IMG/VR virus record: IMGVR_UViG_3300012274_000094
Coordinates: 45,909 to 65,908 of that record
Length of the DNA stretch: 20,000 nucleotides
Direction: 5' to 3' (one strand)
Source: an uncultured virus (IMG/VR IMGVR_UViG_3300012274_000094)
Taxonomy: Duplodnaviria; Heunggongvirae; Uroviricota; Caudoviricetes
In this document: piece after piece, positions 826 through 16,374 of the stretch
Position numbering within the stretch: the first letter of the stretch is position 1
How the letters are laid out: the number at the start of each line of letters is the position of its first letter
The notes under the pieces: generated by a model
Databases searched by the model: none
What the model was told of the DNA's origin: nothing
The model's input: only the letters and a program-made list of their open reading frames with translations
Translations under genes and position numbers: made by a program

Positions 826-827
826 AA

Positions 828-1549: not shown

Positions 1550-1992
1550 TGGCTATGAAGTTATTACCTGAATCAGAAGGGTATGCTGTAGTTGCTGGTT
1601 CTATCCAGCAACTTTCGGAAGAACTCTATAAAGAATATCAATTAACTGGTTACTCAATTTTGCTTGAGGATATCGTTAAGGCATTTATTGAAGAGACAAA
1701 ATCTTATGCGGGTTGGGCGACATTAGATTGTCAAACTAAGGCAATTACCAGTATTGAACTGAATGAATCCATAGAACTTAATGGGGATGAGTATGTAATC
1801 ATTTTGCCTTTAGTAAAAGCGCATTGTGATCTTTTGCAAGCTCGATTAGTTGAAGCTACCCGTGGGCTAGGTGTCGAAAGTTACGGGCTTTCAGTCTCAG
1901 AAGCTCAGCAAAACTATAATGAGAAGAAAGAAGCTTTACCAAAACTTGCATTTTTAATGGTCCCTAAGAGTTTTAATATGGGGAACCGTTAA
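1549..1992 (+). CDS. Hypothetical phage structural/assembly protein
   Basis: 147-aa ORF with TAATG stop/start overlaps at both ends, lying between the tube-like and hub genes. Confidence 0.6.
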   Translation: MAMKLLPESEGYAVVAGSIQQLSEELYKEYQLTGYSILLEDIVKAFIEETKSYAGWATLDCQTKAITSIELNESIELNGDEYVIILPLVKAHCDLLQARLVEATRGLGVESYGLSVSEAQQNYNEKKEALPKLAFLMVPKSFNMGNR

Positions 1993-2885
1993 TGCAAATT
2001 ACCATTGTGTCTGCGGGTAAAGTTATTCCAGCATCTGAGCTCATTAGTGCAACTTTAAGAACTGATCTCGTACCAATTCCAGCATCCATTGAGTTTACAG
2101 TTCAATCAACAGCAGAATTAGACTCCCTTTTGAAAGAAGGGGAGCAGTTAACTGTAAACGATATTTCTCATCCATTTGAATTAATCAAAGTTACTCCTCT
2201 AAAAACTCAAACTATTAAACAAGATCGCCGTGTAGGTGGTATCTCATGTATTGGCATTTTGGCTGGCTGTAAAAGACTTATCGAAAATTCAAAGCAAGCT
2301 GTTATTAGTAATGAAACCTCCTTTAATTCAGTGATAAGAGCTTGTGGAGCAACTATCAGTCTAGGTGGTGATTTACCTTTGCCAAAATTCGTATGCCTAA
2401 AGGGAAGCTTGCCTACACAACGTTTGGCTCATTATCTGCAGCAAGAAGCGGCAGTCATTTGTTTTCAAAACAATAAGATGTCAGCTCAAAAAATTGATTC
2501 TTTTTTCAAAAAGGAACCAGTCACAAAACTAGATCCTAGCAGTGTCGTTTGGATATCCAGTAAACCTTTGGAACTGATGCAAAAATCATCTTTCGTGACC
2601 GTGGAGAATAACGGTTCAACGGTTGTTGGTGATGACTCAATAACCCCAGGCCACACTGTTACGCAAAGAGCTGGTTTAGATGCCCGACAAGTTAAAAACT
2701 TAGAAAAAGTTTTGATCTTGCGGGGAACCATAATCAGGCCGCTAAATTTGAATTGGAATGCGGGCGATATATTCGAAATTGATAGTAAGAAGTATGTCGT
2801 TTTAACAGCTGCACATCATATAGATACAGGCGCAATCGGGGGATCAATGGGGACTTCATCAAAGTTCTGGATTGCTAATTTGTAG
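1992..2885 (+). CDS. Baseplate hub protein (gp27/GpD-like)
   Basis: 297 aa, directly upstream of a spike OB-fold. Shows LISATLRTDLVPIPASIEFTV at the N-terminus and a hub-like C-terminal barrel (GDIFEIDSKKYVVLTAAHHI). Confidence 0.6.
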   Translation: MQITIVSAGKVIPASELISATLRTDLVPIPASIEFTVQSTAELDSLLKEGEQLTVNDISHPFELIKVTPLKTQTIKQDRRVGGISCIGILAGCKRLIENSKQAVISNETSFNSVIRACGATISLGGDLPLPKFVCLKGSLPTQRLAHYLQQEAAVICFQNNKMSAQKIDSFFKKEPVTKLDPSSVVWISSKPLELMQKSSFVTVENNGSTVVGDDSITPGHTVTQRAGLDARQVKNLEKVLILRGTIIRPLNLNWNAGDIFEIDSKKYVVLTAAHHIDTGAIGGSMGTSSKFWIANL

Positions 2886-2894: not shown

Positions 2895-5800
2895 ATGAAT
2901 GGTTATAAACGTGCAAAGATTTTAAGTTACAACGCAAAAGGTCGTACTGCACAAGTACACATTCATGGTTTAACTGATGGCGCGAGTGAAGGCATTACGG
3001 CAACTTTTGCCTATCCAGTCGGTGATAGTGATTTAGATACAGAAATACAAATTGTGGATGGGGAAGACGTCTATGTCTTCTTTGAAAACGGCAATGAAGA
3101 ACGTCCAGTAATCCATAGTTATGTTAGTCACGGAGACGGCGCAATTGTAGGTGTGCGCCGTATTCGACAAGACAATATTGAATTTATCTCTAAAGAAAAT
3201 TTAAAAGTAGATTCTGGCACAACTGTATCTATTAAAACGCCGTTGATGAATGTGCAAGCTAATACACAACAAACTGGTAATAGCACATTAACGGGAAATA
3301 GCACTGTAGTAGGTAATACTTCAGTAGCAGGTAATAGTTCTGTTGCAGGCAGTATGGCCGTAGGCACAACGCTTACGGTTGCAGGTGTGCCTATTGACCC
3401 TAAAGCTATTGAGGGGGCATTTAAAGACGCTCTTGATAAGTTAGAGAGTTTAAAAGAAGACTTAAAAGAACAAGGCGAAAAAATTGATGAAAACAAAGAT
3501 CAGGTAAGCCAAGAAATTGATGAAAAAATAAAAGAAGTAGAAGAGTTAATTGATAATATTAAAGATTCTGATGCCTATAAATTGCTTGAAGAAGGTATTA
3601 ATCATATTGATGAAGAAGTGCAAAAAATTCATGACCAAGTAAAAGAAGTAGGTCAGATTGCACAAAATAAAGTTGATGAAATTCGGGCTTATATTGATCA
3701 AGAAATTGTCGATACAAAACAGATTGTTGAGCAGCATGTCAGTGATGCAAACATTCGTTTGGATGAAGCCAATCAACGTATTGATCAATCAATTCAAGCG
3801 AATGAAGCGCTGGTGGCAGATGCTCAACAACGGGCTATTCGTGCTGAGAAAGAACTTGATGACAAAATTGGTTTCATCAAGAGAGAAACGGATTCTATTA
3901 TTGCTGATGTTAGAAGTGATGCAGATGAAATTCGTATAGTTGCTGAAAACGCAAAAAAGGTTGCAGATCAAGAAGTTCTAGACCGCAATAAGCAAGCAGC
4001 TGAAACTCTTATTGTAATAGACCAAACAAAAGCCGCTTTAAAACAAGATATTGATCAAAGCTTAGTTAAAGCAGGTCAAATGATTGATGATGCTAAATTA
4101 GCATTAGGTGAAGAAACTAATACTCTCATTAATCAAAAAATTGAACCTATTGTAAGCCAAACTGAAGCTGCTGTTAAAAAAGTAGATCAAGTTGCAGCCC
4201 AATATGTTGACCTTAATAAGAAAGTCGATTCGGGCTTTCTAGCTGAAGCTGAAGCACGTGCAAATGATAAAGAGGCATTAACTCAAAGTTTTGAGCTTAA
4301 GTTTGCTGAAATGCAAACTGAATTGGGAAAATCAAACGCCTTAATCTCAGAAGAAATTAAAACGCTTGCAGCAAAAGATAAAGCTATAACTGAACAAATT
4401 AGTACTGCTCAGTCTCAAATTGGAGATAACAAAGCAGCAATTAATAATGTTGAGCGTACAGTAGTTGATCTTGGTAAATCTGTTGCTGAAAAAACTGATC
4501 AAATACAAGCCAGTTTAGACACCACAAATGCAAGTTTATTAAGTGCTAATGAGTTAGCGCGGATGCAATCACTTGGTAAACCTTTACGTGATGATCCCAC
4601 GTTTCTATCGGGGAATGGGGGATTAAGTGCCTATGCGGTACCAGCAGGCTCAACACTAACTCGACAAGCCAAATCTACGGATAACCCCGTAAATAGTACC
4701 CATGAGATGCTTTTAAGATCTACAGCATCTTTAGGTGGTGGCTGGTATCCAACTGTTCCTACACTTGTAGCTGCGCCTAATAAAACGTTTTTAATAAAAC
4801 AAATCATTAAAATGCCAAAAGGGACATATTTATTACCAGTTGGCAATGCTACAGGTACGGGTGGTTATTTACGAGTACTTGGAAATAAAGAAGGTACAGG
4901 CAAGTTTGAGGTTTATTACTCTGTTGTTCAGTGTGGCTATGATGCACCAGCAGCTATTCATGGGCATTTTCGTGTTTTAGCTGGCACTAATCCACCTTTA
5001 CCAAGCACTTCAAGTCCAGTTGATGTAATCCTTGCTGATTATGAGGTCTGGGACATTACAGCATTAAATGACACCATTCCTAAAGCATGGCGTGATCAAA
5101 TTACTGGTAATGCCTCATATATCGAAAAGGTTGAATCTTCTGTAAAACTTGTTGATGAGAAACTTGTTTCAGAAGCAAAAAAACTTGAAGAACTAAAGAC
5201 TGACTATAATTCAAATAAGACTAAAACAACGTCTGATTTAGCGACAATTACTCAGTCAGTTTCTGATGGAGATAAAGCCTTATCATTACGTATCGACCAA
5301 ACGAAAGCAGCTCTGGAAGAAGCAGATCGTCAGTCGAATTCAAATATTCTAGAAGTTACTGAGTCACTAGCTGAATTTGAACAGTCTACCACGACAAAAT
5401 TTACGGAACTTGATACAAGTATCTCGAAGGAAAATTTGAAGGTACAAGGTCAGATTGTAGATGTCCAAAAAAGTGTATCTACCTTAGAAAGTAATACAAA
5501 CACTAAAATATCTGGCCTTTCTTCTTCACTTAAAACTACTGATGATATTGCTAAACTGGCTTTCGATAATGCAGCCGAAGCGCAGCAAACTGGTACAACA
5601 GCGGTAAAAGCTACTGAAGCACTTTCTCAAAATTTATTAAGTCTCAAGTCTCAAACTCAAGTAACTACTGGTGTGAGGGCAGTAGTAACAGCAAAAGGAA
5701 TTGATGACTGGTCAACTTGGCGAACTACAGGTGAAGCTAAAGTACTTCAAGATTCTGATGCATTTGGCGGTTATATTCTTGAGCTTGGTAATAATGCTGG

Positions 5801-8800
5801 CAATGATGAAGTTTGGGTTCATTGGAAAGAATTAGTAAAAATTATTCCAGATACGCTTTATCGGGTGCGTGCACGTTTCCGTCGTGTTGCTGGTGAAAAT
5901 GGAAGTATTTATTTAGGTGTTGCATGTAAAACAGCAGATCAAACTAAGTATGTAACAACTACAAATAATCTTGCTGCAGACATGGGCTCATCAAATTACT
6001 TGTTGTCTGCAATTAAACCAAATTTAGGTGAATGGCAAGAAGTAGTACTTTATCTGAAAGGAAAATCTACAGGTGCAGCTACGGGACTTGGAACAATTGA
6101 TAATCCGCGTACTTTCCCAGCACAAGCTGAATTTTATGCCCCAATGTTTATTGGTAACTATGCAGCTCAACCAGGTATAAGTCAGCTTAACTACATTATC
6201 GTTGAAGATAACAACTCTTTAGCTTCAGCAAATGATGCAACAGCAACTGCAAATGATTTATTCAAAACTGCTACTAATAGAACTGAGGCTGAAGCAGAAC
6301 GGACCAGTAAGCTTGAATCAAGAATGCAGAATGCTGAATCAGGTATTCAGAGTAACGCTCAAGCATTATTGAAAACAGCTACAAAGAGTGATCTTGAAAG
6401 CGCCATGGGACGTGTGGCGACTGATATTACAGCTGCAGTGAATAACATTAAGATTGGTGGTGTAAACGCCGTAGCTAATTCAGAAGCACCTCGAACGTCC
6501 ACAGCAGCAACAAGCCGTGAATACTTAATGTATGAACGTAGCAAAGAGCTGAAAGCTTTTTATGACGAAAATTTAGATAAGCCGGTTACTATTTCTTTTG
6601 ACGTGAGTGTGCCCGTTGCTGGAACAGTACAGGTTTACTCTTCAAATGGATCTGCTCATTACTTTACAACTTCAGTTACTGTAACAAAAGCAAATGAGTT
6701 TCAAAGATTTGCAGTTACAGTATCCCCTAAAGTACATACTGGAAGTACTACCGAATCTACAATTGAGTTTTATGGAACATATGGTTCTGGTCGAATTCCA
6801 ACAATTCAAAAATTACAGATCGAAGCAGGCAATAAGGCTACTGCATGGAGCCCAAGCCCACGTGATACTCAAAGCTCTTTAGATGCTAATGCGGAAGCAA
6901 TTAAAGTCACTCAAGCTGAAGTGAAAAAGAATGGAGATACTTTATCTTCTCAAAGTATAGATATTTCTAAGCTTAGAAATGATTTAACTTTGACTAACAC
7001 TGAAGTAGGGAAAAAAGCCTCAAGTGAAGCACTTGAAACAACAAATTCAAAAGTAACTGAACAAGCTGGACAGATTAAGGCTGTAACTGAACAGGCAAAT
7101 ACCTTGTCTGCGAACTTAAGTAAATCAGCACCAGCGGGTACAAATCTTTTAATTAATTCAAATGTAATTGGTAACTATGATGGAGTTTCGTATCCTCATG
7201 TACTTTATAAAATGGGGGAAGATTGGGAGGTAGGTGCAAAATATACTTTGTTATGGTGTGCAGAACATAAGCGTAATAATGCTGATACAAACTCTACATT
7301 AGGTGCATATGTAGGTGGTGGACAGCAGGTTGTTCAATCACTTACAAATAGTAATGGGAAAGTAGTAAGTAAAATTACTTTTACTAAAAACAGTAGTGGT
7401 TTAGGTAAGTACGTCAATTTCTACATGCTTAATAGGCCAAGTGCAGCACAAGGTTCTATTGGTACAGTTTACTGGGCTGTATTAGTCAAAGGGGAGTTAA
7501 TAACTACAGATAGTTGGATTGCTAGCCCATATGACTTTAATGCAGCTTTTGATCAAGTATCTGCTAATCTCACTGAGTTTAAGCAAACATATGTGACTGA
7601 AAGGGATGCATTAGCACAGCGCACATCTAAGCTTGAAGTTGGTATGACAGATGTAGAGAAGAATATCTTTAACACTGCTCAAGCTCTAAATAACTACGCT
7701 ACAAATGCAAAATTAGATGAAGTTACAGCTTCACAAACAAAGACGTTTAATACTTCACTGACTAAATTGGATGAAGCACTGAAATCGGCAAATGACAGTG
7801 ATTCATTGGCAGGCGATTATAACTGTAAGAATCCTGACATGTGGTATAGCCATTACGGTTATGACATCTCTCAGTATTTTAAAACTACAACAACTGGGAA
7901 AATTGGTAATACAGTTTTCAGAAAGGATACTTCAAATCCAGTTAACTGTTTTAATTACAATAAACAATCACTACCAAATACACGAACATATATTGTGAGT
8001 TTCCTTGTTCGTCGTAGCTCCGATTCAAACGGTCTTTGTTACATTCCAATTGGTCGTGCAAAAAATGATGGGGTATTTTCAACAGCAAATTATACTAGTG
8101 TAAGTGTTCCAATTGCTGAAATCCCAGCAAATGAAACTTGGACTCTTATTTCAAAAGTCATCAACATGACTTCAGTTGATGATACATATCCCCAAATTCA
8201 GTTAGGTATTGCTTTAGGTCATACTGGAAATGCGGGTTGGTGGGAAGCGCAAGCATATAAAATTACACCAGTTCTAAATGAGTCAGATGTAGACAGCACA
8301 ATTGTTAAGTCTTCTATTCTTGTTGATTACTCAAGTAAGTCTGATACGACTAAAGCAATCTCTGCTGCTACTGAGTCTCTTAAAGCCAAATTCCGTCAGA
8401 AATTTGGTGACTTATGGACCAATAGTTCAGCAACTCTTGATAGTACTCGTTATACAAAAACAGAGACTAATCAGGCGATTGCAGAGGAAAGTAAAATCAT
8501 AAAAGCCGCAATTTCAACTAGTGGCGGCGATAATATTATTAAAAATGGTGATTTTTCTAAGCCTCTTGAAATTTCAAATTGGCGTCAAAATGCAGCAGTA
8601 GCAGGTAGCTTATTAGAAGTTTATAAGGACTCAAATGGGGTTACTTGGGGGCATTTTAAATCAACCAATACAGCTACATATTTTAAAGGCTTTATTGAGA
8701 CGATTACTTTAGCTGAAGGTCTAGAAGGGAACCAGAAATACACGTTGTCATTCAAGGCAAAATCATTGACAGCTGCTCAATCACAAATACTCCTAATCAT

Positions 8801-11800
8801 TCATCGTCGTGATGCTGCAGGTAGTAACAATCAAATTGGAACCTCTTGGAATAATATTTCGACAGATAAAGAAGTTTTATGTACTTACACATTTGACACT
8901 AATCTTGTTGATTTACAATATATTAATGTAATTCTGTATGCTCAAATTGGATTTGCACCTGATTTTTTAATTCGTGAAGTACAAATTGAAAAAGGTGAAT
9001 TAGCAACTGGTTTTAGAAAAAATCCTCGTGAACTTGAAAAAGGGTTAGAGGCTAATGCAACCGCAATTGAAGGGACCAAGGCAGATGTTAAAAAGAATGG
9101 TGAACAAATTGCATCCATTTCTGAAAATTATGTAACTTTAAAATCTGCGGTCGATAATAATAAATTATCTGTTGACGGTAAGTTTCAAGAAATTAACTCT
9201 ACAATTAGCGACAACCAGCAAAATACAACACAGTCAATTTCGAACTTAGAGTCAAGTTATAAACAACTTAATCAAGATCTTGGTCAAGTTTTCAATTATC
9301 GTGTCTACTCATGTGGTTGGAATGGCTTTTTCACAGGGATAAAAAACCTTAAAGGTGAAATCAAATCCGTAGCTTCAGCTCGCGGATTCTCAGTTCATGT
9401 TTTAGCTGCTGATGGGTCAATTGCATCTTCAACTCGATACGATACATATGCTGCTATCGCTAATGCAACGGCGATGAGTAATGCTATCGCCGCGATTCCG
9501 AATGACACATTTGTTATTGTGACCAATTACGACAGTATCGGAGTAAATATTGCTACTGTTAGAAATGCCTTAATCTCTCTTGGGGCAAATCCATTTACAA
9601 TTGATCAAATTACTGGCCGTGATGCATACATATTAGTAGGTCAAAAAGGAATTGGCTCGGGGAGAGGTATCGAATTACATTCAACACCAGATACGGGCCC
9701 AAATGGAGCCAAACAAATCATGCTTGCCGTTCAGGTCGTAAGTGGTATTCCGATTGGTTTGGCAAATAACAGTGGTAACTTACAAAAGGTGTTAGAAAAC
9801 CACGCTCAAATACTTCAAGAAAAAATTACTCGATCTGATGCAAAAGAAGTCTTTGCTGAGGAAATTAAAGTCTTCAAAGCACAACTAGATACCTTACGTT
9901 ATTCCGAAGAAAACTGGATTTTACTAGGTGATGATACTAAAAATTTAAGTATCACCACTGGTACCAATAGAACCGTTGCTGTTTGGGAACTTCAATACAA
10001 ACATAAAGAAATTCCTATCGATAAAGGTGATCCGGTTGTAGCCCGTATCAAATATACAGCTGCAGCTGGATTAGTTGGAGCTACCTGTAGCATTCAATTT
10101 CATGGAGCAACTTATAGCATTGGATTACCTTCATTTATTGTTGCTGCAAGTGGTGAAATTGAATTGACTGGTATTTTCCCTTCTGATTTAAAAGCCTCTG
10201 CTTATGAAGGTATTCCATTGGGTTTACGATTTGATAATGCTCCATCAGGGGGAACATTTACTGTGACCAATATGTTTATTAGCCGTGGTAATTCAGCACC
10301 GAACTTTAAAGGAGGTTTTAGATCCTCTCTTAAGCAAAATGCACAGTTTGTAGAAGATACTTTTATCAAAGCAGATGCAAACAAAGGTGTTATTGCCCAG
10401 CAAATTCAACAATATGATGCTGGTGTACCTGGTGGATTATCTACAGTTGTGAAAACAACAAAAGCTACAGCTGACCAAACTTCACAAGATCTTGCAACTC
10501 TTAAAAATACTGAAATTTCACAGTTACAAACAAGTACTAACAATCTTGGCTCTGCATTAGAAAACACAACTATGCTGGCGATGATGATTACTAACGGCAA
10601 GTTGGTGCAAGGAGACGTGAACTTTAAAAAGGGTAATAATGTAGTAGGTGTATATAACAATGCTGGAAATGGGAACGTTACTGTTACTCGTGTGGCAAAA
10701 AGTGCGGATAACCCGACTACATCAACACATGAGCTGGAAATCAAAACCATTGGTGCAGCAAATCCAGTCTGGGGTGGATTTTTCCAACTTGTTTATGGCC
10801 GTGCAAATGCTGTTTTTGTCATCAAATATTTAATCAAGCTACCAGTGGGTTATAAATTAATGAATGCTGGTAACGCTATGGGGACTGGCGCAATTGATCG
10901 CTTCATTGGCAGTACAGAGGGTACAGGTAAATTCGAAACTTATATTCGAATGATTAAATGTGGTGCGGCAGGTACTTTCTCAAACTCAGGACATGTTTAT
11001 GTGGCTGGCGGCTCTACACCAACTGCAACAGTACCTTTAGTTTGGACCTTAGCCCAAATTGAGCAATATGACGTTACCGATTACGCTTCAGCTGACCCAA
11101 CATTACAAGATTTTGTTTCTACAGCTACAGACTCTATTTCAACATTAACCAATTTCAAAGAAACATGGGCGGCCAAACTTTCGGAGATGTCTTCAAAGTT
11201 AGACAGTAAAAACGGCGCTTATATTCTGAATGCGGATATGACAAATACCAATGTTGAGCGAGCTATTGCTGCATCCTCACAGAAAATTACCTCAGAATAT
11301 ACTAATGCAATGAGCGTTCAGCCACTGGGTTCAGGTGGAGGCAAAATTTTCGTGAAGCCTTTGACTTGGCGTCAACCAATCACGACTACGGGAACTCTTG
11401 TAATTAAGACACCAATTACAATTGGTGCCTTCATGACTAAAGTTAAAATCTCAGGTTATAACTACAACAACAAAGAAGACAATATTTTTGATTTGGACTT
11501 GGCGTTCTATGCATATACGTCAACAGTACCATTTTATCCAAATATGACTTCGCGTTCTTTTGGTATCACCTTAGATGAAAGTAATACTACGACTAAAGGT
11601 TTGGCTTTAGCTTTAGATAGCAATAATAAAGTGTGCATCTTAATTACCAAAAAAGATGCTTGGTCTTACCCAGCTATTACGGTTGAGTCAGCAACAATTA
11701 CTCATACAAACCCGCCAGATAACTTTAAAGAAGGATGGTCAGCGGCTATTGAAACGGATTTATCGGTTTATAAGTCAGTAACGCCGTTTACTGTCACTTC

Positions 11801-13400
11801 AATGATGGAAACGACTGCAGGTTCTCAAGCCAAAGTTGATATTCCAATGGCTCAGTTAAGTGATATTGCAGCTGATAATAAACTTACACCCGTTGAGAAA
11901 AAACAGGCGAAGTTGGTGTGGGATACTCTTTATCAAACTGATACAAGCTTACGAGCTGAGGCTGTCACTTATGGTATATCTTCAGCTGCTTATGCAACAG
12001 CTTTTAGTACTTTAAATACATATTTGGCTTCTTTGTTTGCCAATATGAATACAACCAGTACGATTGATCGAAATCAGTTTATTACTAACTTTGCGAATGT
12101 ACACAATGCACGTCAAGCATTGGTAAGAGCAATATCTGAAAAGGCAAAAGAGATAGCCGATTCTGCAAAAGACTTAGCATCAACTACAAAAGCGACATTA
12201 GAGCGTGATTACATGACGTCTACCAAGACGAATGAAGCAATTGCATCTTCAACTGAAAGAATGTCTGCTCTGTATTCTGCAAATGGTCAAAAGATCATGG
12301 CTTCAGTACTAGATACATGGCAAAAAGATTGGTTGGTAAAAACACCAAGTGGAAACAAACCTGAGCTAAATTTAGTGGCTGATGCAACTTGCCGTGGGGG
12401 ATATGCACTAAGAATAGGTAATAACGTTGGAAATGATGAAGCTTGGTTAAATTGGTTTGCTTCTTTGCCAATCGATGACAACAAATACTATCGAGTGAAG
12501 TATAGATTCCGCCGTGTAAGTGGTACGGGGGTTGTATACGTAGGTGCAACTTGTCAGAACGCCACTAAAACTAAATATGTGGCTCAAGACAACACCGAAA
12601 TTAATGATATTGGATCGAGTCATTATCTTGTTGCTGGTACCGCACCAGCGCTGGGAACTTGGATAACTGGAACTGCATATTTCAAAGGTAGATCTGCTGG
12701 TGCAAGTGCAGGTGCCGGCACTCTACTAAGTCCAAAAACATTTGCAAATAAAGCTGCTTTCTTTACTCCAATGATCATCGGTAACTATTCAGGAAAAGCT
12801 GGTGAGGTGGATCTAGACTTTATTGATATTGAAGATGCAGACAATATTGCAGATTTTGAAAACTTTAAAACCACCTATACAACTGATGTGGGTGCATATG
12901 CTGGCGCATTACAAACATTAGTATCTGTTTACGGCCAAAATGCTATCAAGCTTAAATCGCAAGCTGACTTGATTGATGGTGTGAAAGGTAAATACGTAAT
13001 GGGCATGGATAATAACGGTGTGTTTTCTGGCATGTCTATGGTCAGTGAGCAAACGAATGGAACCGTTATCAGTTCAATAGGTTTTCAAGCGGATAAAATA
13101 TTCTTCACTACTGGTACTTCTTCTACTAAATATATGCCGTTCATAATCCAAGACAATCAAGTTGTCATGAACAGTGATGTATTTATTAAGAATTTGACAG
13201 CTGCAAACTTCAAAGCGAAGTCTTTAACAGCTGAACTGTTTAAAGTCGATAAATTGAGCGCGATTGCTAGTGAGTTGGGGACCTTAACTACGTACAAGGA
13301 TCCGGCTAAACCCAATGGTGCAAGAATGGTTTTAAGCGGCAGTTTAATTACGGTTTACGATGATAATAATGTTGTCAGGGTTAAATTAGGGCTGTGGTAG
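2895..13400 (+). CDS. Giant (3501 aa) baseplate spike / central tail fibre fusion: gpV/gp5 OB-fold + beta-helix, coiled coils, multiple CBM-like modules, ILEI-like domain, DUF1983/gpJ-like C-terminus
   Basis: N-terminal OB-fold AKILSY...VQ/HIHGL...GEDVYVFFENGNEERPVI and GNSTLT/GNSTVV/GNTSVA beta-helix repeats. Internal repeated globular modules are separated by heptad linkers. C-terminus GMDNNGVFSGM...FQADKIFF...PFIIQDNQVVMN..FIKN...ITVYDDNNVVRVKLGLW. Confidence 0.85.
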   Translation: MNGYKRAKILSYNAKGRTAQVHIHGLTDGASEGITATFAYPVGDSDLDTEIQIVDGEDVYVFFENGNEERPVIHSYVSHGDGAIVGVRRIRQDNIEFISKENLKVDSGTTVSIKTPLMNVQANTQQTGNSTLTGNSTVVGNTSVAGNSSVAGSMAVGTTLTVAGVPIDPKAIEGAFKDALDKLESLKEDLKEQGEKIDENKDQVSQEIDEKIKEVEELIDNIKDSDAYKLLEEGINHIDEEVQKIHDQVKEVGQIAQNKVDEIRAYIDQEIVDTKQIVEQHVSDANIRLDEANQRIDQSIQANEALVADAQQRAIRAEKELDDKIGFIKRETDSIIADVRSDADEIRIVAENAKKVADQEVLDRNKQAAETLIVIDQTKAALKQDIDQSLVKAGQMIDDAKLALGEETNTLINQKIEPIVSQTEAAVKKVDQVAAQYVDLNKKVDSGFLAEAEARANDKEALTQSFELKFAEMQTELGKSNALISEEIKTLAAKDKAITEQISTAQSQIGDNKAAINNVERTVVDLGKSVAEKTDQIQASLDTTNASLLSANELARMQSLGKPLRDDPTFLSGNGGLSAYAVPAGSTLTRQAKSTDNPVNSTHEMLLRSTASLGGGWYPTVPTLVAAPNKTFLIKQIIKMPKGTYLLPVGNATGTGGYLRVLGNKEGTGKFEVYYSVVQCGYDAPAAIHGHFRVLAGTNPPLPSTSSPVDVILADYEVWDITALNDTIPKAWRDQITGNASYIEKVESSVKLVDEKLVSEAKKLEELKTDYNSNKTKTTSDLATITQSVSDGDKALSLRIDQTKAALEEADRQSNSNILEVTESLAEFEQSTTTKFTELDTSISKENLKVQGQIVDVQKSVSTLESNTNTKISGLSSSLKTTDDIAKLAFDNAAEAQQTGTTAVKATEALSQNLLSLKSQTQVTTGVRAVVTAKGIDDWSTWRTTGEAKVLQDSDAFGGYILELGNNAGNDEVWVHWKELVKIIPDTLYRVRARFRRVAGENGSIYLGVACKTADQTKYVTTTNNLAADMGSSNYLLSAIKPNLGEWQEVVLYLKGKSTGAATGLGTIDNPRTFPAQAEFYAPMFIGNYAAQPGISQLNYIIVEDNNSLASANDATATANDLFKTATNRTEAEAERTSKLESRMQNAESGIQSNAQALLKTATKSDLESAMGRVATDITAAVNNIKIGGVNAVANSEAPRTSTAATSREYLMYERSKELKAFYDENLDKPVTISFDVSVPVAGTVQVYSSNGSAHYFTTSVTVTKANEFQRFAVTVSPKVHTGSTTESTIEFYGTYGSGRIPTIQKLQIEAGNKATAWSPSPRDTQSSLDANAEAIKVTQAEVKKNGDTLSSQSIDISKLRNDLTLTNTEVGKKASSEALETTNSKVTEQAGQIKAVTEQANTLSANLSKSAPAGTNLLINSNVIGNYDGVSYPHVLYKMGEDWEVGAKYTLLWCAEHKRNNADTNSTLGAYVGGGQQVVQSLTNSNGKVVSKITFTKNSSGLGKYVNFYMLNRPSAAQGSIGTVYWAVLVKGELITTDSWIASPYDFNAAFDQVSANLTEFKQTYVTERDALAQRTSKLEVGMTDVEKNIFNTAQALNNYATNAKLDEVTASQTKTFNTSLTKLDEALKSANDSDSLAGDYNCKNPDMWYSHYGYDISQYFKTTTTGKIGNTVFRKDTSNPVNCFNYNKQSLPNTRTYIVSFLVRRSSDSNGLCYIPIGRAKNDGVFSTANYTSVSVPIAEIPANETWTLISKVINMTSVDDTYPQIQLGIALGHTGNAGWWEAQAYKITPVLNESDVDSTIVKSSILVDYSSKSDTTKAISAATESLKAKFRQKFGDLWTNSSATLDSTRYTKTETNQAIAEESKIIKAAISTSGGDNIIKNGDFSKPLEISNWRQNAAVAGSLLEVYKDSNGVTWGHFKSTNTATYFKGFIETITLAEGLEGNQKYTLSFKAKSLTAAQSQILLIIHRRDAAGSNNQIGTSWNNISTDKEVLCTYTFDTNLVDLQYINVILYAQIGFAPDFLIREVQIEKGELATGFRKNPRELEKGLEANATAIEGTKADVKKNGEQIASISENYVTLKSAVDNNKLSVDGKFQEINSTISDNQQNTTQSISNLESSYKQLNQDLGQVFNYRVYSCGWNGFFTGIKNLKGEIKSVASARGFSVHVLAADGSIASSTRYDTYAAIANATAMSNAIAAIPNDTFVIVTNYDSIGVNIATVRNALISLGANPFTIDQITGRDAYILVGQKGIGSGRGIELHSTPDTGPNGAKQIMLAVQVVSGIPIGLANNSGNLQKVLENHAQILQEKITRSDAKEVFAEEIKVFKAQLDTLRYSEENWILLGDDTKNLSITTGTNRTVAVWELQYKHKEIPIDKGDPVVARIKYTAAAGLVGATCSIQFHGATYSIGLPSFIVAASGEIELTGIFPSDLKASAYEGIPLGLRFDNAPSGGTFTVTNMFISRGNSAPNFKGGFRSSLKQNAQFVEDTFIKADANKGVIAQQIQQYDAGVPGGLSTVVKTTKATADQTSQDLATLKNTEISQLQTSTNNLGSALENTTMLAMMITNGKLVQGDVNFKKGNNVVGVYNNAGNGNVTVTRVAKSADNPTTSTHELEIKTIGAANPVWGGFFQLVYGRANAVFVIKYLIKLPVGYKLMNAGNAMGTGAIDRFIGSTEGTGKFETYIRMIKCGAAGTFSNSGHVYVAGGSTPTATVPLVWTLAQIEQYDVTDYASADPTLQDFVSTATDSISTLTNFKETWAAKLSEMSSKLDSKNGAYILNADMTNTNVERAIAASSQKITSEYTNAMSVQPLGSGGGKIFVKPLTWRQPITTTGTLVIKTPITIGAFMTKVKISGYNYNNKEDNIFDLDLAFYAYTSTVPFYPNMTSRSFGITLDESNTTTKGLALALDSNNKVCILITKKDAWSYPAITVESATITHTNPPDNFKEGWSAAIETDLSVYKSVTPFTVTSMMETTAGSQAKVDIPMAQLSDIAADNKLTPVEKKQAKLVWDTLYQTDTSLRAEAVTYGISSAAYATAFSTLNTYLASLFANMNTTSTIDRNQFITNFANVHNARQALVRAISEKAKEIADSAKDLASTTKATLERDYMTSTKTNEAIASSTERMSALYSANGQKIMASVLDTWQKDWLVKTPSGNKPELNLVADATCRGGYALRIGNNVGNDEAWLNWFASLPIDDNKYYRVKYRFRRVSGTGVVYVGATCQNATKTKYVAQDNTEINDIGSSHYLVAGTAPALGTWITGTAYFKGRSAGASAGAGTLLSPKTFANKAAFFTPMIIGNYSGKAGEVDLDFIDIEDADNIADFENFKTTYTTDVGAYAGALQTLVSVYGQNAIKLKSQADLIDGVKGKYVMGMDNNGVFSGMSMVSEQTNGTVISSIGFQADKIFFTTGTSSTKYMPFIIQDNQVVMNSDVFIKNLTAANFKAKSLTAELFKVDKLSAIASELGTLTTYKDPAKPNGARMVLSGSLITVYDDNNVVRVKLGLW

Positions 13401-13405
13401 TGAAG

Positions 13406-13432
13406 AAGGGCTAGTTATCTAGCCCTTTATAT
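13406..13432 (+). terminator. Hairpin / probable weak terminator after the giant tail gene
   Basis: AAGGGCTAG-TTAT-CTAGCCCTT followed by TATAT, ending just before RBS GGGAGGA. Confidence 0.6.
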
Positions 13433-13444
13433 TGGGAGGACAAT

Positions 13445-13765
13445 ATGCCACAAGGCTTACAATGTTTTGATGAAACTGGGAAGATTGTTGTTGATGTTAC
13501 AGATCGTCAAATGCACTTAATACATACTTTTGAAATCTCTTTAGGTTCTAATGAGTATTATAAGGATTATGTTTATGACGGTATTTCATCTGAAACTCAT
13601 ATAGCAATTGTTAGAGAAGACTGCTTAGGTAATATGACTCAGCAATACCCTACACTTGCTTACCATGGTGGGCCTTTTGCGTCTATTTATACACCTAATG
13701 TAGTAAGAGTGAGTGCATTATCTGGTTTAGCCCTTCTTACTGTTGATATTTATAGGTATGGATAA
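13445..13765 (+). CDS. Tail-tip accessory protein (type found downstream of gpJ-like central fibres)
   Basis: 106 aa with strong RBS GGAGGA. N-terminus MPQGLQCFDETGKIVVDVTDR is typical of small gpJ-associated tip proteins. Confidence 0.65.
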   Translation: MPQGLQCFDETGKIVVDVTDRQMHLIHTFEISLGSNEYYKDYVYDGISSETHIAIVREDCLGNMTQQYPTLAYHGGPFASIYTPNVVRVSALSGLALLTVDIYRYG

Positions 13766-14427
13766 TGTCTGGTTTTGAAGTAAGTAATGATAAAGGTGAA
13801 ATTATTGTTAGTGACACTTACAGACATTTAGGTGTAAATTCTGTACAAGTGTTAGATGGTGGTGCACCTAGTTCAATAGGTGCATCTTCTGGTTGGGCAC
13901 CTAGTTTTATTCAAACCCCTAGTTTGGTATATCCTTCTTTTCGTAATGATTTACCAAAAGAGACTCTTTATATTTTAAACCTATCAGAAGGTACAGAGTT
14001 TTGTGGGAAATATTGGCATAGTGTGCATAACAATAATATTTCATTTTTAAGTTATGACTACACTAAAATCTCTGGTTATTTAGATGTATATGATGAGCAA
14101 GGTAATTTAATCTGGTCTGCTATATCTGCTAAAAATGTTCCAAGGATAGTGCAAACATATCAATTAACAGCAGATAACTTATTAAACGGTATTACGCTGA
14201 GCATTGGTTCTAATGTGGGTATCTTACTAAATACTTTACCTTCATGGTTTAGACCGGGACCTATGAATAACTTAAATAGAGGGGGCGTGTTTGGTAGATA
14301 CTCTAACAGTCAGTTACAATTACAGTTTGCTGCTGCTGCTAAATTAAATGATATCTCCCCAAGGATTATTGAAAATTTAGGGCCAAATGGCACTCTTCCT
14401 GTTCATATTACCTCTTTTGCATCATAA
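13765..14427 (+). CDS. Putative receptor-binding tail-tip protein
   Basis: 220 aa with TAATG overlap. Two related motifs, GFEVSNDKGEIIVSD and GYLDVYDEQGNLIWSA, are typical of gpJ-associated tip proteins. Confidence 0.65.
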   Translation: MSGFEVSNDKGEIIVSDTYRHLGVNSVQVLDGGAPSSIGASSGWAPSFIQTPSLVYPSFRNDLPKETLYILNLSEGTEFCGKYWHSVHNNNISFLSYDYTKISGYLDVYDEQGNLIWSAISAKNVPRIVQTYQLTADNLLNGITLSIGSNVGILLNTLPSWFRPGPMNNLNRGGVFGRYSNSQLQLQFAAAAKLNDISPRIIENLGPNGTLPVHITSFAS

Positions 14428-14441
14428 GGTTACTAGATAAA

Positions 14442-14469
14442 AAGAAAGCCCCTTAATTGGGGCTTTCTT
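14442..14469. terminator. Bidirectional Rho-independent terminator
   Basis: AAGAAAGCCCC-TTAATT-GGGGCTTTCTT between convergent genes (14427 and 14484), with an A-run on the left and a T-rich tract on the right. Confidence 0.85.
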
Positions 14470-14483
14470 CATTTAAATGCATT

Positions 14484-14838: not shown

Positions 14839-16374
14839 ATGTCTTCTCGGTTCTTATCGTTGTTACTCGGTGAAAATGTTAATTCATATGATCAGCAATT
14901 TGATGCCTCAAATCAGGATGCTACGGCGCAGCTTTATGAATCCATGGCACCATTTTCACTTGGGACCAATCAAACTAAAGCCAATAAGAAGCGTACTCGA
15001 AAAGAAATTTTCACCAAATGGGAGAGAATGTTACGCTTTGCCCCTATCGCAGAGGGTATGGGGATTCATGTTTCTGCAGCTTTAGGCGGAGATTCTTATA
15101 GCGGCCAACAAGTGTTTATTACACCAGCACAACGTTTGAAAAAGGGAAATGGCCCAGCAGCTGAAAAAATCAAAAAGCAGCTAGATGAACGCCGTGATGT
15201 CATGGAAAAGCTGATCAATAAGTATTTAAGTAAGCTTGCCCGAGATGCGATTTCATTTGGCGATTCTTATGCCCGAATTTATGGCAAAAAAGAAAATGGA
15301 GTAATTGACCTCCTTTGTAATGAGTATACTTATCCGCCATTAATACAGCCATTCGAACAGGGCAGTAAAACTGTCGCATTTTTTTGCTTAGATCCTCGAA
15401 ATTGGCAGAAAACTATTACCAAACTAAATACTATTCAAATGGTACGTTTCAAAATGCCCCGTATGAGCAATATTGCTCAATATGAACTTGTTGAAACTGG
15501 CCTTGTAACTAAAATGTTAGAAGGAGATGACCCAGATGAATTACCGATTTTACCAGCGCATTTAGGTGGTTCATTTCTATACGAAATTGAAGAAGTTTAT
15601 GATGATGTGATTCTTGCATTGGCATCTATGAACAGCCAGCAGATTGCAGATACAGTAAATCAGATGTTCTTGACGGTAAATATGTCTGGAATGCCGCCAG
15701 CACAACGCCAAGCCTATGTTCGGGGTTTAGAAGGTTTACTTAAAAATCATGAGACATATGTTCGTGATGCTTTATCTGGTGGCGAAGCCGTTTGGAATAC
15801 TGCTTTTCATATGCTGCCAGTATTTGATGAAAAGCAAGTTCTAAATCCTGTTGGTGATATCAAACTTCAAAGAAGCTCACCTATTAATATTGAACAATTC
15901 ATGATTAATGTCCGTTTGTTAATGGGCGGGATAGGTCTAGACCCAAGTATGGTAGGGTGGGCTGACATGTTAACTGGTGGTATTGGTGAAGGAGGAGCGT
16001 TCCATACCTCAGCGCAAATAATGCGTAGGTCACAAGATATTCGTACAGCAGTAACTGAAGGGATTAATCAGATTCTTCATTTGGATTGGGGATTTGCATT
16101 TAATGAACAATTTGAGCCTAAAGATTATCCTTGGCAAGTTGAATATTATACAAACCAAACTGCAGCAGCTACTGAAGAAATCAGTAATGCCCAATCTAGA
16201 ATGAATACAACACTACTTAAAACCCAAGTGATTGCCGCTTTAAAGGAGACAAACTTAGATGTAGAAACTATGGCCTATATTCTAGAGCGCGATGCAGGTA
16301 TGAAATATGATGAAGCTCAATTATTATCTGAAAGTATTTTTAAGAGCCGTAAATTTCCTGAGGATGATGAATAA
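14839..16374 (+). CDS. Probable portal protein (P1 Prt / T4 gp20-like)
   Basis: 511 aa. Portal-like motifs WERMLRFAPIAEGMGIHVSAALG, LARDAISFGDSYARIY, VNMSGMPP, LMGGIGLDPSMVG. Confidence 0.65.
   Translation: MSSRFLSLLLGENVNSYDQQFDASNQDATAQLYESMAPFSLGTNQTKANKKRTRKEIFTKWERMLRFAPIAEGMGIHVSAALGGDSYSGQQVFITPAQRLKKGNGPAAEKIKKQLDERRDVMEKLINKYLSKLARDAISFGDSYARIYGKKENGVIDLLCNEYTYPPLIQPFEQGSKTVAFFCLDPRNWQKTITKLNTIQMVRFKMPRMSNIAQYELVETGLVTKMLEGDDPDELPILPAHLGGSFLYEIEEVYDDVILALASMNSQQIADTVNQMFLTVNMSGMPPAQRQAYVRGLEGLLKNHETYVRDALSGGEAVWNTAFHMLPVFDEKQVLNPVGDIKLQRSSPINIEQFMINVRLLMGGIGLDPSMVGWADMLTGGIGEGGAFHTSAQIMRRSQDIRTAVTEGINQILHLDWGFAFNEQFEPKDYPWQVEYYTNQTAAATEEISNAQSRMNTTLLKTQVIAALKETNLDVETMAYILERDAGMKYDEAQLLSESIFKSRKFPEDDE

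What the first reader, a model, noticed from the sequence alone, without database searches (positions are those of the whole stretch)
2895..14427. Chimeric tail tip: contractile-tail spike fused in one 3501-aa chain to a siphovirus gpJ-type fibre end, with its two accessory tip genes
Seen: the first ~165 aa form a gpV/gp5 OB-fold plus a short beta-helix (TGNSTLTGNSTVVGNTSVAGNSSVAG, about 3270-3390) directly after a hub gene. There is no HxH apex; the chain instead continues ~3300 aa and ends in a DUF1983/gpJ-like C-terminus (about 12900-13397). The two following genes carry GLQCFDETG / GYLDVYDEQG motifs. Known: myophage spikes (P2 gpV, Mu gp45) are about 200 aa and end in a piercing tip, whereas DUF1983 and these accessory genes belong to the non-contractile central fibres of lambdoid/T1-like phages. 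Inference: a P1-like contractile tail whose central spike is extended into a very long trimeric receptor-binding filament, i.e. a hybrid adsorption device.
Basis: partly seen in the sequence, partly recalled or inferred. Interest (0 to 1): 0.85.

Follow-up and report, generated by a model that had tools for sequence, protein, structure and literature searches.

The report
Tail spike fused to giant host-recognition fibre
In a temperate Acinetobacter phage with a contractile tail, the small needle protein at the tail tip has lost its point and is fused to a fibre of about 3,300 residues that ends in the host-recognition cassette otherwise typical of lambda-like phages.

Summary
Window 2895-13400 is one uninterrupted 3501-aa ORF in an ABMM1-like Acinetobacter provirus. 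Residues 1 to about 165 are a Mu gp45 / P2 gpV / P1 gp5-type central spike: 36-50% identical to aligned stand-alone spikes of 147-224 aa, 8 of 16 alignment members carrying the Pfam Apex motif. The HxH apex is absent here and a helix starts at residue 169.

In 30 of 32 related Moraxellaceae loci the spike is a short separate gene, usually followed directly by the portal gene. Only the A. baumannii/nosocomialis lineage carries the in-frame fibre with its two small genes. The isolated myovirus ABMM1 has the same fusion and no second spike copy, so the fusion is real and apparently functional.

The chain alternates coil-like stretches with about 11 globular modules, some carbohydrate-binding-like, and ends in a lambda-J-type Phage_Tail_Tip domain plus a conserved end motif. 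The two downstream genes form, with that end, a three-part cassette also found behind J proteins of siphoviruses and behind giant tail proteins of N4-like podoviruses and Saclayvirus myoviruses. So the cassette is not siphovirus-specific.

The fibre itself, its trimeric state and any receptor binding are inferred, not shown. I rate it a new variant of a known kind.

The parts
1992..2885 (+). Candidate baseplate hub (297 aa), immediately upstream of the spike
   Evidence: phrog_1390 'tail protein', E 3.7e-81. A homologue lies upstream of the spike in 30 of 32 Moraxellaceae loci and in Xanthomonas phage Rb1. Atlas feature neighbours include Phage_GPD (18% of one cluster) and XkdQ/YqbQ clusters, which is a lead only. 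No PDB or Pfam match.
2895..13400 (+). Giant spike-fibre ORF, 3501 aa (P0001)
   Evidence: phrog_5911 'tail protein' and phrog_11 'baseplate spike'. 88.8% nt identity to phage ABMM1, whose homologue is a 3451-aa 'hypothetical protein'.
2895..3389 (+). Central-spike domain, aa 1-165: OB barrel (about aa 5-76) plus a beta-helix repeat region, with no HxH apex
   Evidence: 36-50% identity to the 15 other sequences of A1, stand-alone spikes of 147-224 aa. The A1 profile hits Mu gp45 at E 1.7e-5. AF2 model has pLDDT 75 with strands at 5-76. Foldseek top hits are the P1 baseplate chain 9vzk_q, contractile-injection-system spikes, Mu 9ki1_V, VgrG and the R2 pyocin spike. The apex is absent.
3399..4595 (+). 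First long coil-like segment, aa 169-567
   Evidence: AF2 predicts a helix at 169-199. A composition filter (at most 2 of G, P, W, Y, F, C, H per 28 residues) marks 175-567 as coil-like. The coiled-coil reading is inferred.
4596..5090 (+). Globular module A1, aa 568-732; duplicated as A2
   Evidence: Internal repeat 601-722 against 2610-2728, 35% identity, E 1e-21.
5706..6224 (+). Globular module B1, aa 938-1110; duplicated as B2
   Evidence: Internal repeat 1003-1110 against 3212-3319, 43% identity, E 8e-29. The module is shared with the Saclayvirus and Presley giant tail proteins.
8532..8912 (+). CBM_4_9-like module, aa 1880-2006
   Evidence: Pfam PF02018, E 1.7e-4, 22.4 bits, below the 25.9-bit cutoff. 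The Saclayvirus homologue passes the cutoff at E 1.7e-19.
9381..9650 (+). ILEI/PANDER-like module, aa 2163-2252
   Evidence: Pfam PF15711, E 8.2e-13, 49.1 bits against a cutoff of 27.
10611..11114 (+). Globular module A2, aa 2573-2740
12327..12851 (+). Globular module B2, aa 3145-3319
13008..13193 (+). Phage_Tail_Tip (PF09327, DUF1983) domain, aa 3372-3433
   Evidence: Aligns to lambda J 872-952 at 32% identity, E 1e-5.
13221..13397 (+). Conserved end segment, aa 3443-3501, ending ...ITVYDDNNVVRVKLGLW
   Evidence: Invariant columns are shared with Presley, XC38, Saclayvirus CRR8 and HK639 J. The same ending precedes the accessory pair in 64 of 79 IMG/VR loci.
13445..13765 (+). Accessory gene 1 (106 aa), begins MPQGLQCFDETG
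   Evidence: phrog_7961. Homologues lie directly after J-type or giant genes in Presley, CRR8, XC38, HK639, Flotzy and LLS. Complex prediction with the tip gave weak support: score 0.42, best control 0.01.
13765..14427 (+). Accessory gene 2 (220 aa), motif SGYLDVYDEQGNLIWSA; candidate receptor-binding protein
   Evidence: phrog_4524. Homologues and alignment. AF2 model has pLDDT 72 and pTM 0.73. Best VIA-align match is the LptDE-bound RBP of phage Oekolampad, 9rpt_C: Z 6.7, rmsd 4.8, 130 residues aligned; the next row has Z 3.5.
14839..16374 (+). Portal gene; marks the downstream edge of the inserted fibre cassette
   Evidence: phrog_1497, E 3e-205. In relatives the portal homologue follows the short spike directly, or after one extra gene in 7 loci.

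Best explanation
The ORF is a genuine chimeric central tail protein. A Mu gp45 / P2 gpV / P1 gp5-type spike (OB barrel plus a short beta-helix) keeps its place under the baseplate hub. Its iron-binding apex has been replaced by an in-frame extension of about 3,300 residues. Because the spike is a trimer on the tail axis, the extension is expected to continue that axis as a trimeric fibre. I estimate about 1,460 residues of coil-like rod interrupted by about 11 globular modules, some of them lectin- or CBM-like.

The fibre ends in a lambda-J-type tail-tip domain and a conserved end motif. The two downstream gene products are proposed to dock on that end, with the 220-aa protein as the likely terminal receptor binder. 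The device would act as a long central adsorption line that can reach through the Acinetobacter capsule to an outer-membrane receptor. The separately encoded side fibres and the contractile sheath would then complete infection.

Shown: the fusion, its domain identities, its lineage-specific insertion between spike and portal, its presence in a viable myovirus without a second spike, and the mobility of the tip cassette. Inferred: the trimeric fibre, its length, docking of the accessory proteins, receptor binding, and how an apex-less spike crosses the membrane.
For: Spike identity:
- 76 stand-alone homologues of 99-315 aa were found; sources name one 'baseplate assembly protein gpV' and one 'Gp5/Type VI secretion system Vgr protein OB-fold'.
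- Alignment A1 has invariant columns through G128. Apex Pfam is present in 8 of 16 members.
- The A1 profile hits Mu gp45 (3vtn, 3vto, 9ki1_V) at E 1.7e-5 to 7.4e-5.
- The fold model's best matches are the P1 baseplate chain 9vzk_q (E 3.2e-4), contractile-injection-system spikes, VgrG and pyocin spikes.

Insertion:
- Of 32 Moraxellaceae loci, 30 have a complete short spike ORF (147-228 aa), 1 is cut by a contig end, and 1 (L008) has a 3192-aa fusion.
- By tblastn, fibre middle, tip, acc1 and acc2 occur in 1 of 32 loci, while hub occurs in 30, portal in 26 and DarA in 24.
- Among the best 150 of 184 representative hits, only 6 exceed 300 aa, and only the window's own clusters are giant.

Real and functional:
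- ABMM1 is a plaque-forming phage with a contractile tail by TEM (PMC10345192, passages). It carries the same fusion with a 100% identical N-terminal 170 aa and only one spike-like place in its record.
- The provirus has one match to the spike profile and no hidden apex or alternative frame at the junction.
- Six IMG/VR proviruses have unbroken spike-to-tip ORFs of 3187-3193 aa.

Tip cassette:
- PF09327 and alignment with lambda J and HK639 J.
- The three-part cassette occurs in HK639, Presley, XC38 and CRR8 and in 64 of 79 IMG/VR loci.
- PMC8594841 (passages) describes RBP loci directly downstream of gpJ homologues in small siphoviruses.

Docking:
- Complex prediction of the tip (135 aa, 3 copies) with acc1 gave weak support. 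Score 0.42, best of 3 controls 0.01. The runs agree in at least 94% of contacts and the partner's pLDDT is at least 68.
- The mark was reached by 116 of 157 solved complexes and 2 of 215 mismatched pairs. At 0.60 or under it was reached by only 18 of the 157 solved complexes and by both mismatches. My own alignments were used.

Co-variation:
- ABMM1's fibre is 90.7% identical over the last 300 aa, but its last roughly 25 residues differ and its two downstream genes are unrelated by hhalign.
- A third end allele exists in the 1613-aa variant P0101.

Viability without a tip:
- The T4 spike-tip protein gp5.4 is dispensable for assembly (PMC12407873, abstract).
- P1 carries a tripod (UpfB) anchored at its spike tip (PMC12810830, passages).
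Against: - No particle image, mass spectrometry or genetics links this protein to the tail tip. The ABMM1 paper lists it only as a 372.6-kDa hypothetical protein (supplement row). Its text does not name the six proteins found by LC-MS/MS or mention a fibre; I could not see the figures.
- The AF2 monomer model leaves residues 77-160 without regular structure, and TM-scores to spikes are low (0.28-0.36), as expected for an intertwined trimer but not proof.
- Hub identity is unconfirmed.
- The coil estimate comes from a crude composition filter, not a coiled-coil predictor.
- The match of acc2 to a solved RBP is middling (Z 6.7, 6% identity). Foldseek gave no hit at E <= 0.001, and the sequence profile gave none.
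- The complex score is a weak pass.
- A bulky fibre on the piercing end of a contractile tail has no worked-out penetration mechanism.
- Several A. baumannii records hold interrupted or shortened versions, and one (L071) has almost the whole gene deleted. The gene is therefore often broken in resident prophages, or in their assemblies.
Confidence: 0.72

Rival explanations
1. The fusion is an assembly or annotation artefact, or a dead pseudogene. In this reading the real spike is a short protein, and the fibre is a separate gene or junk.
For: Related species have a stop after a short spike in 30 of 32 loci. Some A. baumannii records hold shorter or interrupted ORFs (992-2969 aa) and one holds a near-complete deletion.
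Against: The same uninterrupted fusion is seen in the isolated phage ABMM1, in A. nosocomialis L008, in six IMG/VR proviruses and in a 3500-aa representative cluster. The short relatives end in an apex that is absent from every frame here. Both alternative frames at the junction are full of stops. ABMM1 forms plaques and has no other spike copy.
Confidence: 0.03
2. The fusion is real, but the fibre is not a standing central filament. Either it is cleaved off or processed after assembly, leaving an ordinary blunt spike, or it folds back along the baseplate or tail as a decoration.
For: The passages I read of the ABMM1 paper report no long central fibre; I could not see the figures. A fibre longer than the 118-nm tail is mechanically awkward for a piercing device.
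Against: No protease or intramolecular-chaperone domain was found in the chain by Pfam, PHROGs or NCBIfam. The J-type tip and the RBP-type cassette sit at the far end, which makes sense only if that end is exposed. The helix begins directly after the beta-helix, on the trimer axis.
Confidence: 0.12
3. The two small downstream genes are assembly chaperones for the fibre end, like tail-fibre assembly proteins, rather than virion-borne receptor binders. The receptor contact would then be made by the giant chain itself.
For: Small genes after fibre genes are often chaperones; this is general knowledge and was not tested here. The match of acc2 to a solved RBP is only Z 6.7, and the docking prediction is a weak pass. 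The chain itself carries CBM-like and ILEI-like modules that could bind sugars.
Against: In small siphoviruses the genes directly downstream of gpJ homologues track the terminal receptor (PMC8594841, passages). The best structural neighbour of acc2 is a receptor-bound RBP from such a locus, well above the next row. The last roughly 25 residues of the fibre and the accessory pair change together between the window and ABMM1. Both readings fit that last point.
Confidence: 0.25
4. The extension is cargo rather than a fibre. As with 'evolved' VgrG spikes of type VI secretion, the C-terminal part would be delivered into the host as an effector.
For: Spikes of contractile systems with C-terminal extensions are known from type VI secretion (general knowledge). 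VgrG chains are among the fold matches.
Against: No enzymatic or toxin domain was found. The architecture is alternating coil and beta-sandwich modules, shared with tail proteins of podoviruses and myoviruses. The end is a J-type tip with an RBP-type cassette.
Confidence: 0.03

Closest known systems
Central spikes of contractile tails: Mu gp45, P2 gpV, P1 gp5
   Same: It has an N-terminal OB barrel followed by a beta-helix, and the gene follows the hub candidate. The family profile hits Mu gp45, and the best fold match is the P1 baseplate spike chain.
   Different: Those proteins are about 200 aa and end in an HxH apex, or in P1 and T4 carry a separate tip protein. Here the apex is missing and about 3,300 residues follow.
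Lambda gpJ-type central tail fibres with downstream RBP loci (HK639 J; T1-like and Dhillonvirus phages of the BASEL collection)
   Same: It has the Phage_Tail_Tip domain, the conserved ...YDxNNVLRVRMGLW-type ending and two homologous small genes directly downstream.
   Different: The roughly 800 N-terminal residues of J, which build the siphovirus tail tip, are absent, and lambda's own C-terminal receptor domain is not matched. Here the anchor is a myovirus spike.
Giant tail proteins of Acinetobacter phages: Presley gp60 (2133 aa), XC38 gp34 (2479 aa), Saclayvirus 14/CRR8 'tail protein' (2744 aa)
   Same: Shaft modules are shared (36-43% identity over hundreds of residues), as are the end motif and the same accessory pair.
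   Different: None of the three was among the only two phage records (ABMM1 and Xanthomonas Rb1) that matched the spike domain in the tblastn search. In the PHROG profile Presley's chain starts at about position 153, where the window's fibre begins after its spike. They belong to podoviruses, or sit between the capsid and neck genes of a myovirus.
P1 tripod UpfB on the spike tip
   Same: It is an extra structure carried at the distal end of the central spike of a temperate myovirus (PMC12810830, passages).
   Different: In P1 it is a separate protein bound non-covalently to a tip protein. Here the extension is covalent and far longer. No homology was tested.
Evolved VgrG spikes of type VI secretion
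   Same: The principle is the same: a C-terminal extension on the spike of a contractile machine.
   Different: VgrG fuses hub and spike and carries effectors. Here the hub is a separate gene and the extension is a fibre with a recognition tip.
LptD-binding RBP of phage Oekolampad (PDB 9rpt chain C)
   Same: It is the best structural neighbour of the 220-aa accessory protein (Z 6.7, 130 residues aligned). Per PMC13035648 (passages), LptD-RBPs of such phages, Oekolampad among them, are encoded downstream of the tail-fibre/gpJ gene.
   Different: Identity is 6% and there is no sequence-level match. Z is below the level at which the tool's notes advise trust. The receptor in Acinetobacter is unknown.

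Membership tests
gpV/gp45/gp5-type central spike | N-terminal OB-fold barrel | tested here: met
   The AF2 model has five strands at 5-76 with block pLDDT mostly 74-88. Foldseek matches IF1/eIF1A OB folds (TMt up to 0.73) and spike chains. Identity to the 15 aligned stand-alone spikes is 36-50%.
gpV/gp45/gp5-type central spike | Trimeric beta-helix after the OB domain | tested here: inconclusive
   The family profile aligns to the Mu gp45 beta-helix and apex at positions 76-161, and the window has 6-residue repeats at aa 127-152. The monomer model shows no regular structure at 77-160. No trimer model was run.
gpV/gp45/gp5-type central spike | HxH metal-binding apex (Pfam Apex PF18946) or a separate tip protein | tested here: not met
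   Apex is found in 8 of 16 alignment members but not in the window's protein. There is no [ST]HxHxG in any frame of the provirus. A separate PAAR or gp5.4-like gene was not specifically searched for.
gpV/gp45/gp5-type central spike | Gene placed with hub and tube genes in the tail module; single copy | tested here: met
   The order tube, 147-aa gene, hub candidate, spike is conserved: hub is upstream in 30 of 32 loci. There is one match in the own provirus and one place in ABMM1.
Lambda gpJ central tail fibre | Phage_Tail_Tip (PF09327) domain near the C-terminus | tested here: met
   E 4.6e-10, 39.8 bits against a cutoff of 22. It aligns to lambda J 872-952.
Lambda gpJ central tail fibre | N-terminal J body that forms the siphovirus tail tip | tested here: not met
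   BLASTP of the window's last 300 residues (aa 3202-3501) against lambda J and HK639 J aligns only with the C-terminal parts of J; the rest of the chain was not compared. No J-body Pfam family was found in the whole chain.
RBP locus downstream of gpJ homologues (as described for small siphoviruses) | Small genes directly after a J-type C-terminus, homologous to those of lambdoid and T1-like phages | tested here: met
   tblastn hits directly after J in HK639, Flotzy, LLS and T1-like phages. Alignments A2 and A3. The three-part pattern holds in 64 of 79 IMG/VR loci.
RBP locus downstream of gpJ homologues (as described for small siphoviruses) | Product sits on the fibre end and binds the terminal receptor | not testable with these tools
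   There are only indirect hints: a weak-support complex score of 0.42 against a best control of 0.01, and VIA Z 6.7 to a receptor-bound RBP.
Evolved VgrG | Hub (gp27-like) and spike fused in one chain, with an effector at the C-terminus | tested here: not met
   The hub candidate is a separate gene. No effector domain was found.

The most novel reading that the evidence does not exclude
A contractile-tailed phage has given up its piercing apex. Instead it recognises its terminal receptor from the centre of the baseplate, through a fibre perhaps 200 nm or more in length studded with lectin-like modules and carrying a siphovirus-type outer-membrane-protein binder. Receptor binding at the far end would be relayed along the axial fibre to the spike and hub and would trigger sheath contraction. 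That is a firing signal entering through the spike rather than through the side fibres. The same plug-in fibre, with a different N-terminal anchor, would serve podoviruses and other myoviruses of Acinetobacter.
Probability: 0.2. Interest if true: 0.85.

Novelty: new variant of a known kind. Interest (0 to 1): 0.66.

Why it matters
Spikes of contractile tails are thought of as short, sharp and conserved, while long central fibres with J-type tips are a hallmark of non-contractile tails. This lineage joins the two in one polypeptide, and a viable phage (ABMM1) is available to study it.

It offers a natural test of whether a myovirus can infect without a spike apex. It can also show how a bulky axial fibre is cleared during penetration, and whether the baseplate can be triggered from its centre.

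It also shows that the J-type end with its two small genes is a portable host-recognition cassette used by siphoviruses, podoviruses and myoviruses. That helps to predict the receptors of Acinetobacter phages and prophages. The ABMM1 record and paper and the other records seen here label these genes only as hypothetical or generic tail proteins, and NCBI labels the A. baumannii homologues 'sugar-binding protein', 'interleukin-like EMT inducer domain-containing protein' or 'DUF1983 domain-containing protein'.

Tried and rejected
- phmmer of the whole 3501-aa chain against PDB sequences gave 0 hits at E <= 1. NCBIfam gave nothing for the giant chain, either accessory protein or the hub.
- Hub identity by sequence: phmmer and an 11-sequence profile against PDB gave only chance-level rows, and Pfam gave nothing on 11 members. 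The tube protein against PDB also gave nothing.
- Accessory proteins against the local Pfam gave nothing at E <= 10 apart from one chance row. One source's precomputed label PF28254 for the 220-aa family is not in the local library.
- Foldseek of the 220-aa model against PDB gave no hit at E <= 0.001. The A7 profile against PDB sequences gave 0 hits.
- Hidden short spike by frameshift: both other frames at the junction are full of stops, and no apex-like string exists anywhere in the provirus. A search for a second spike gene found one match only.
- Homology of ABMM1's two downstream genes to acc1 and acc2: hhalign probability is below 1%.
- Direct BLASTP of Presley's first 400 aa against the window's first 700 aa gave no significant alignment. 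The PHROG-profile coordinates are therefore soft evidence.
- Two self-BLAST attempts printed nothing because the identity hit masks internal repeats. A chunked search replaced them.
- The terminator and promoter scan of 13300-14900 gave nothing above the shuffles that would define the operon end.
- Literature: three-term searches for 'central tail fiber' + 'contractile tail' + 'central spike' (2 unrelated papers) and 'central spike' + 'central fiber' + 'myovirus' (0 papers) found no description of such a fusion. A paper on A. baumannii phage fibre domains (PMC11823257) contains none of the terms ABMM1, DUF1983, ILEI, Presley, prophage or gpV. These searches cover only the held library.
- Earlier findings of this scan: none for this genome.

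Full report
**What is there.** The window is the last 20 kb of a 65.9-kb IMG/VR provirus record. It is 88.8% identical over 87% of its length to Acinetobacter phage vB_AbaM_ABMM1. Coordinates 2895-13400 hold one + strand ORF of 3501 aa without a stop. Upstream on the same strand lie:
- a short sheath-like ORF (470-787);
- a tube gene (902-1549, phrog_1120);
- a 147-aa gene;
- a 297-aa 'tail protein' (1992-2885, phrog_1390).

Downstream lie two small ORFs (13445-13765, 106 aa; 13765-14427, 220 aa), the portal gene (14839-16374, phrog_1497) and proteins with DarA_N and ddrB-ParB domains. Elsewhere the provirus encodes a sheath, baseplate proteins, a 782-aa protein with a tail-lysin match that is a candidate tape measure, and separate fibre-like genes. 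The giant ORF is therefore neither the tape measure nor the only fibre.

**The N-terminus is a central spike.** A search with residues 1-180 among proteins of 99-315 aa found 76 relatives. Most are 145-196 aa and 42-74% identical (three near-identical partial fragments aside), from Acinetobacter, Alkanindiges and metagenomes. Sources name one 'phage baseplate assembly protein gpV' and one 'Gp5/Type VI secretion system Vgr protein OB-fold'.
- In a 16-sequence alignment, invariant columns run to G128. The relatives then end in a ...SHxHxG... apex, whereas the window's chain continues.
- Pfam Apex (PF18946) is found in 8 of the 16 members but not in the window's protein.
- The alignment profile hits phage Mu gp45 (3vtn, 3vto, 9ki1_V) at E 1.7e-5 to 7.4e-5, and more weakly other tail-tip and puncturing proteins and VgrG.
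- An AlphaFold2 model of residues 1-200 (pLDDT 75) has a five-stranded barrel at 5-76, an unstructured stretch at 77-160 and a helix at 169-199.
- Its best Foldseek matches are the P1 baseplate chain 9vzk_q (E 3.2e-4), contractile-injection-system spikes, Mu 9ki1_V, VgrG and the R2 pyocin spike, next to IF1-type OB folds.
- TM-scores to spikes are low (0.28-0.36). A monomer model of an intertwined trimer would give that, but it leaves the beta-helix untested structurally.

**The fusion is a lineage-specific insertion, not an artefact.** A scan of one genome per species found 32 related loci in Moraxellaceae.
- In 30 of them the spike is a complete ORF of 147-228 aa. One is cut by a contig end. 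Only L008 (A. nosocomialis) has a giant ORF, of 3192 aa, followed by the same two small genes.
- By tblastn with the window's proteins, homologues occur as follows: spike in 32 of 32 loci, hub in 30, the 147-aa gene in 29, tube in 25, portal in 26, the 217-aa gene in 25 and DarA in 24. Fibre middle, tip, acc1 and acc2 each occur in 1 of 32.
- In the relatives the portal gene follows the short spike within 0-150 nt, or after one extra gene in 7 loci.
- Among the best 150 of 184 hits in the 50%-identity representative library, 144 are 294 aa or shorter. The six longer ones are the window's own two clusters (571 aa partial, 3500 aa), proteins of 421 aa (collagen repeats), 332 aa and 694 aa, and a 1493-aa protein matched internally.
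- Proteins of 316-2000 aa carrying this N-terminus are all A. baumannii, 98-100% identical over the domain.
- About 11 kb (fibre, two small genes and a short spacer) therefore entered between spike and portal in the A. baumannii/nosocomialis lineage, replacing the apex in frame.
- The fusion recurs in ABMM1 (3451 aa; N-terminal 170 aa 100% identical; one place in the record), in six IMG/VR proviruses with unbroken ORFs of 3187-3193 aa, and in a 3500-aa cluster.
- ABMM1 forms plaques and has a contractile tail of about 118 nm by TEM (PMC10345192, passages). Its annotation table lists the protein as a 372.6-kDa hypothetical protein (supplement row).
- The provirus has no second match to the spike profile, no apex-like string in any frame, and no open alternative frame at the junction.

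**The chain.** A composition filter marks about 1,460 of the 3,501 residues as poor in glycine, proline and aromatics, in 16 stretches. The longest runs from about 175 to 567, and about 11 globular segments lie between the stretches. This is a crude proxy, and coiled coil is my inference.
- Two module types are duplicated: 601-722 with 2610-2728, and 1003-1110 with 3212-3319.
- Pfam finds an ILEI domain (2163-2252, E 8e-13) and a sub-threshold CBM_4_9 (1880-2006).
- NCBI names relatives 'sugar-binding protein' and 'interleukin-like EMT inducer domain-containing protein'.
- Long stretches are 36-43% identical to a 2744-aa Saclayvirus 'tail protein' and to the 2133-aa tail protein of the N4-like phage Presley.
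- Within A. baumannii the chain is mosaic. A complete 1613-aa variant keeps the spike and a tip but skips modules.
- If the coil-like residues were all helical, the rod would be on the order of 200 nm (inference).

**The end and the two small genes.** Pfam Phage_Tail_Tip matches 3372-3433. This stretch aligns with lambda J 872-952 and with the last 130 residues of the J protein of lambdoid phage HK639 up to a shared ...RVRMGLW ending. Lambda's own receptor domain is not matched.
- The last 60 residues are nearly invariant among the window, Presley, XC38, Saclayvirus CRR8 and HK639.
- In all five, homologues of the 106-aa and 220-aa proteins follow at once.
- Of 80 IMG/VR loci fetched with the acc2 alignment, 79 have an acc2 ORF and 64 show the full three-part pattern. 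The upstream ORF there is mostly 1044-1315 aa, which is J-sized.
- Published work on E. coli siphoviruses describes RBP loci directly downstream of gpJ homologues that track the terminal receptor (PMC8594841, passages; PMC13035648, passages).
- An AlphaFold2 model of the 220-aa protein (pLDDT 72, pTM 0.73) has no Foldseek hit at E <= 0.001.
- VIA-align ranks the LptDE-bound RBP of phage Oekolampad first: Z 6.7, rmsd 4.8, 130 residues aligned, 6% identity, with the next row at Z 3.5. By the tool's own notes this is a lead, not proof.
- A complex prediction of the last 135 residues (three copies) with the 106-aa protein gave weak support. The score was 0.42 and the best of 3 controls 0.01; the runs agree in at least 94% of contacts and the partner's pLDDT is at least 68. 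The mark was reached by 116 of 157 solved complexes and 2 of 215 mismatches, but at 0.60 or under by only 18 of the 157 and by both mismatches. My own alignments were used.
- ABMM1's chain is 90.7% identical over the last 300 residues, yet its final roughly 25 residues differ and its two downstream genes are unrelated by hhalign.
- The extreme end and the small genes thus change together, as expected for parts that touch.

**How it most likely works.** The spike domain sits under the hub on the tail axis. Its three chains continue as one axial fibre, and the far end carries the J-type tip with the two small proteins. The 220-aa protein is the best candidate for the receptor contact. The lectin-like modules may give weak multivalent binding to capsule or other surface sugars.

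The loss of the apex need not be lethal. The T4 tip protein gp5.4 is dispensable for assembly (PMC12407873, abstract), and P1 carries a tripod on its spike tip (PMC12810830, passages). How the fibre is moved aside during contraction is unknown.

**Verdict.** The finding is a new variant of known kinds (central spike; J-type tip with RBP locus). My literature searches found no description of it, within the limits of the held library.

Noticed in passing
window 470-787 (+), with provirus G000:C1:44273-45568 just upstream of the window: The tail sheath appears to be encoded in two pieces in swapped order. The 431-aa gene upstream matches phrog_1036 positions 93-530. The 105-aa ORF in the window matches positions 5-87 (and 1-91 of phrog_5283). 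A 255-aa gene (phrog_1053; its end is window 3-446) lies between them. ABMM1 annotates the same two 'tail sheath protein' CDS.
   Followed up: partly
window 13300-14427 versus L001 (ABMM1) 23302-24923: The window and ABMM1 share the fibre but carry different alleles of the last roughly 25 residues and unrelated pairs of downstream genes. A 1613-aa A. baumannii variant (P0101) has a third ending. This looks like cassette exchange with a breakpoint inside the end of the giant gene.
   Followed up: partly
L071 (IMG/VR provirus), locus 8553-9998: One related provirus keeps the hub and codons 1-61 of the spike and then runs straight into the 106-aa gene, so nearly the whole giant gene is deleted. 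Several other records show ORFs of 992-2969 aa that start after an interruption.
   Followed up: no
L006 (Saclayvirus phage 14/CRR8) 11221-20503: In this 103-kb myovirus the related 2744-aa 'tail protein' and its accessory pair sit between the major head protein gene and the neck and sheath genes, an unusual place for a tail fibre gene.
   Followed up: no
window 17101-18555 (+), repeat at 18224-18363: The DarA_N-domain protein contains 5.8 copies of a 24-nt repeat encoding PEVTPEPA-type units. The ABMM1 homologue is longer, 650 aa against 484 aa.
   Followed up: no
L001 (ABMM1) 8872-11276, versus window 787-902: Between the small sheath piece and the tube gene, ABMM1 carries an insertion with antirepressor-like genes and a Phd/RelE-type toxin-antitoxin pair. 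The window lacks it: only 115 nt separate the two genes here.
   Followed up: no
window 14484-14678 (-): A 64-aa minus-strand ORF lies in the spacer between the accessory genes and the portal gene. ABMM1 annotates a CDS of the same size and orientation there.
   Followed up: no
P0140 (421 aa) and P0251 (694 aa): A few distant relatives of the spike domain also carry C-terminal extensions, one with collagen triple-helix repeats. Extending this spike may therefore have happened more than once on a smaller scale.
   Followed up: partly
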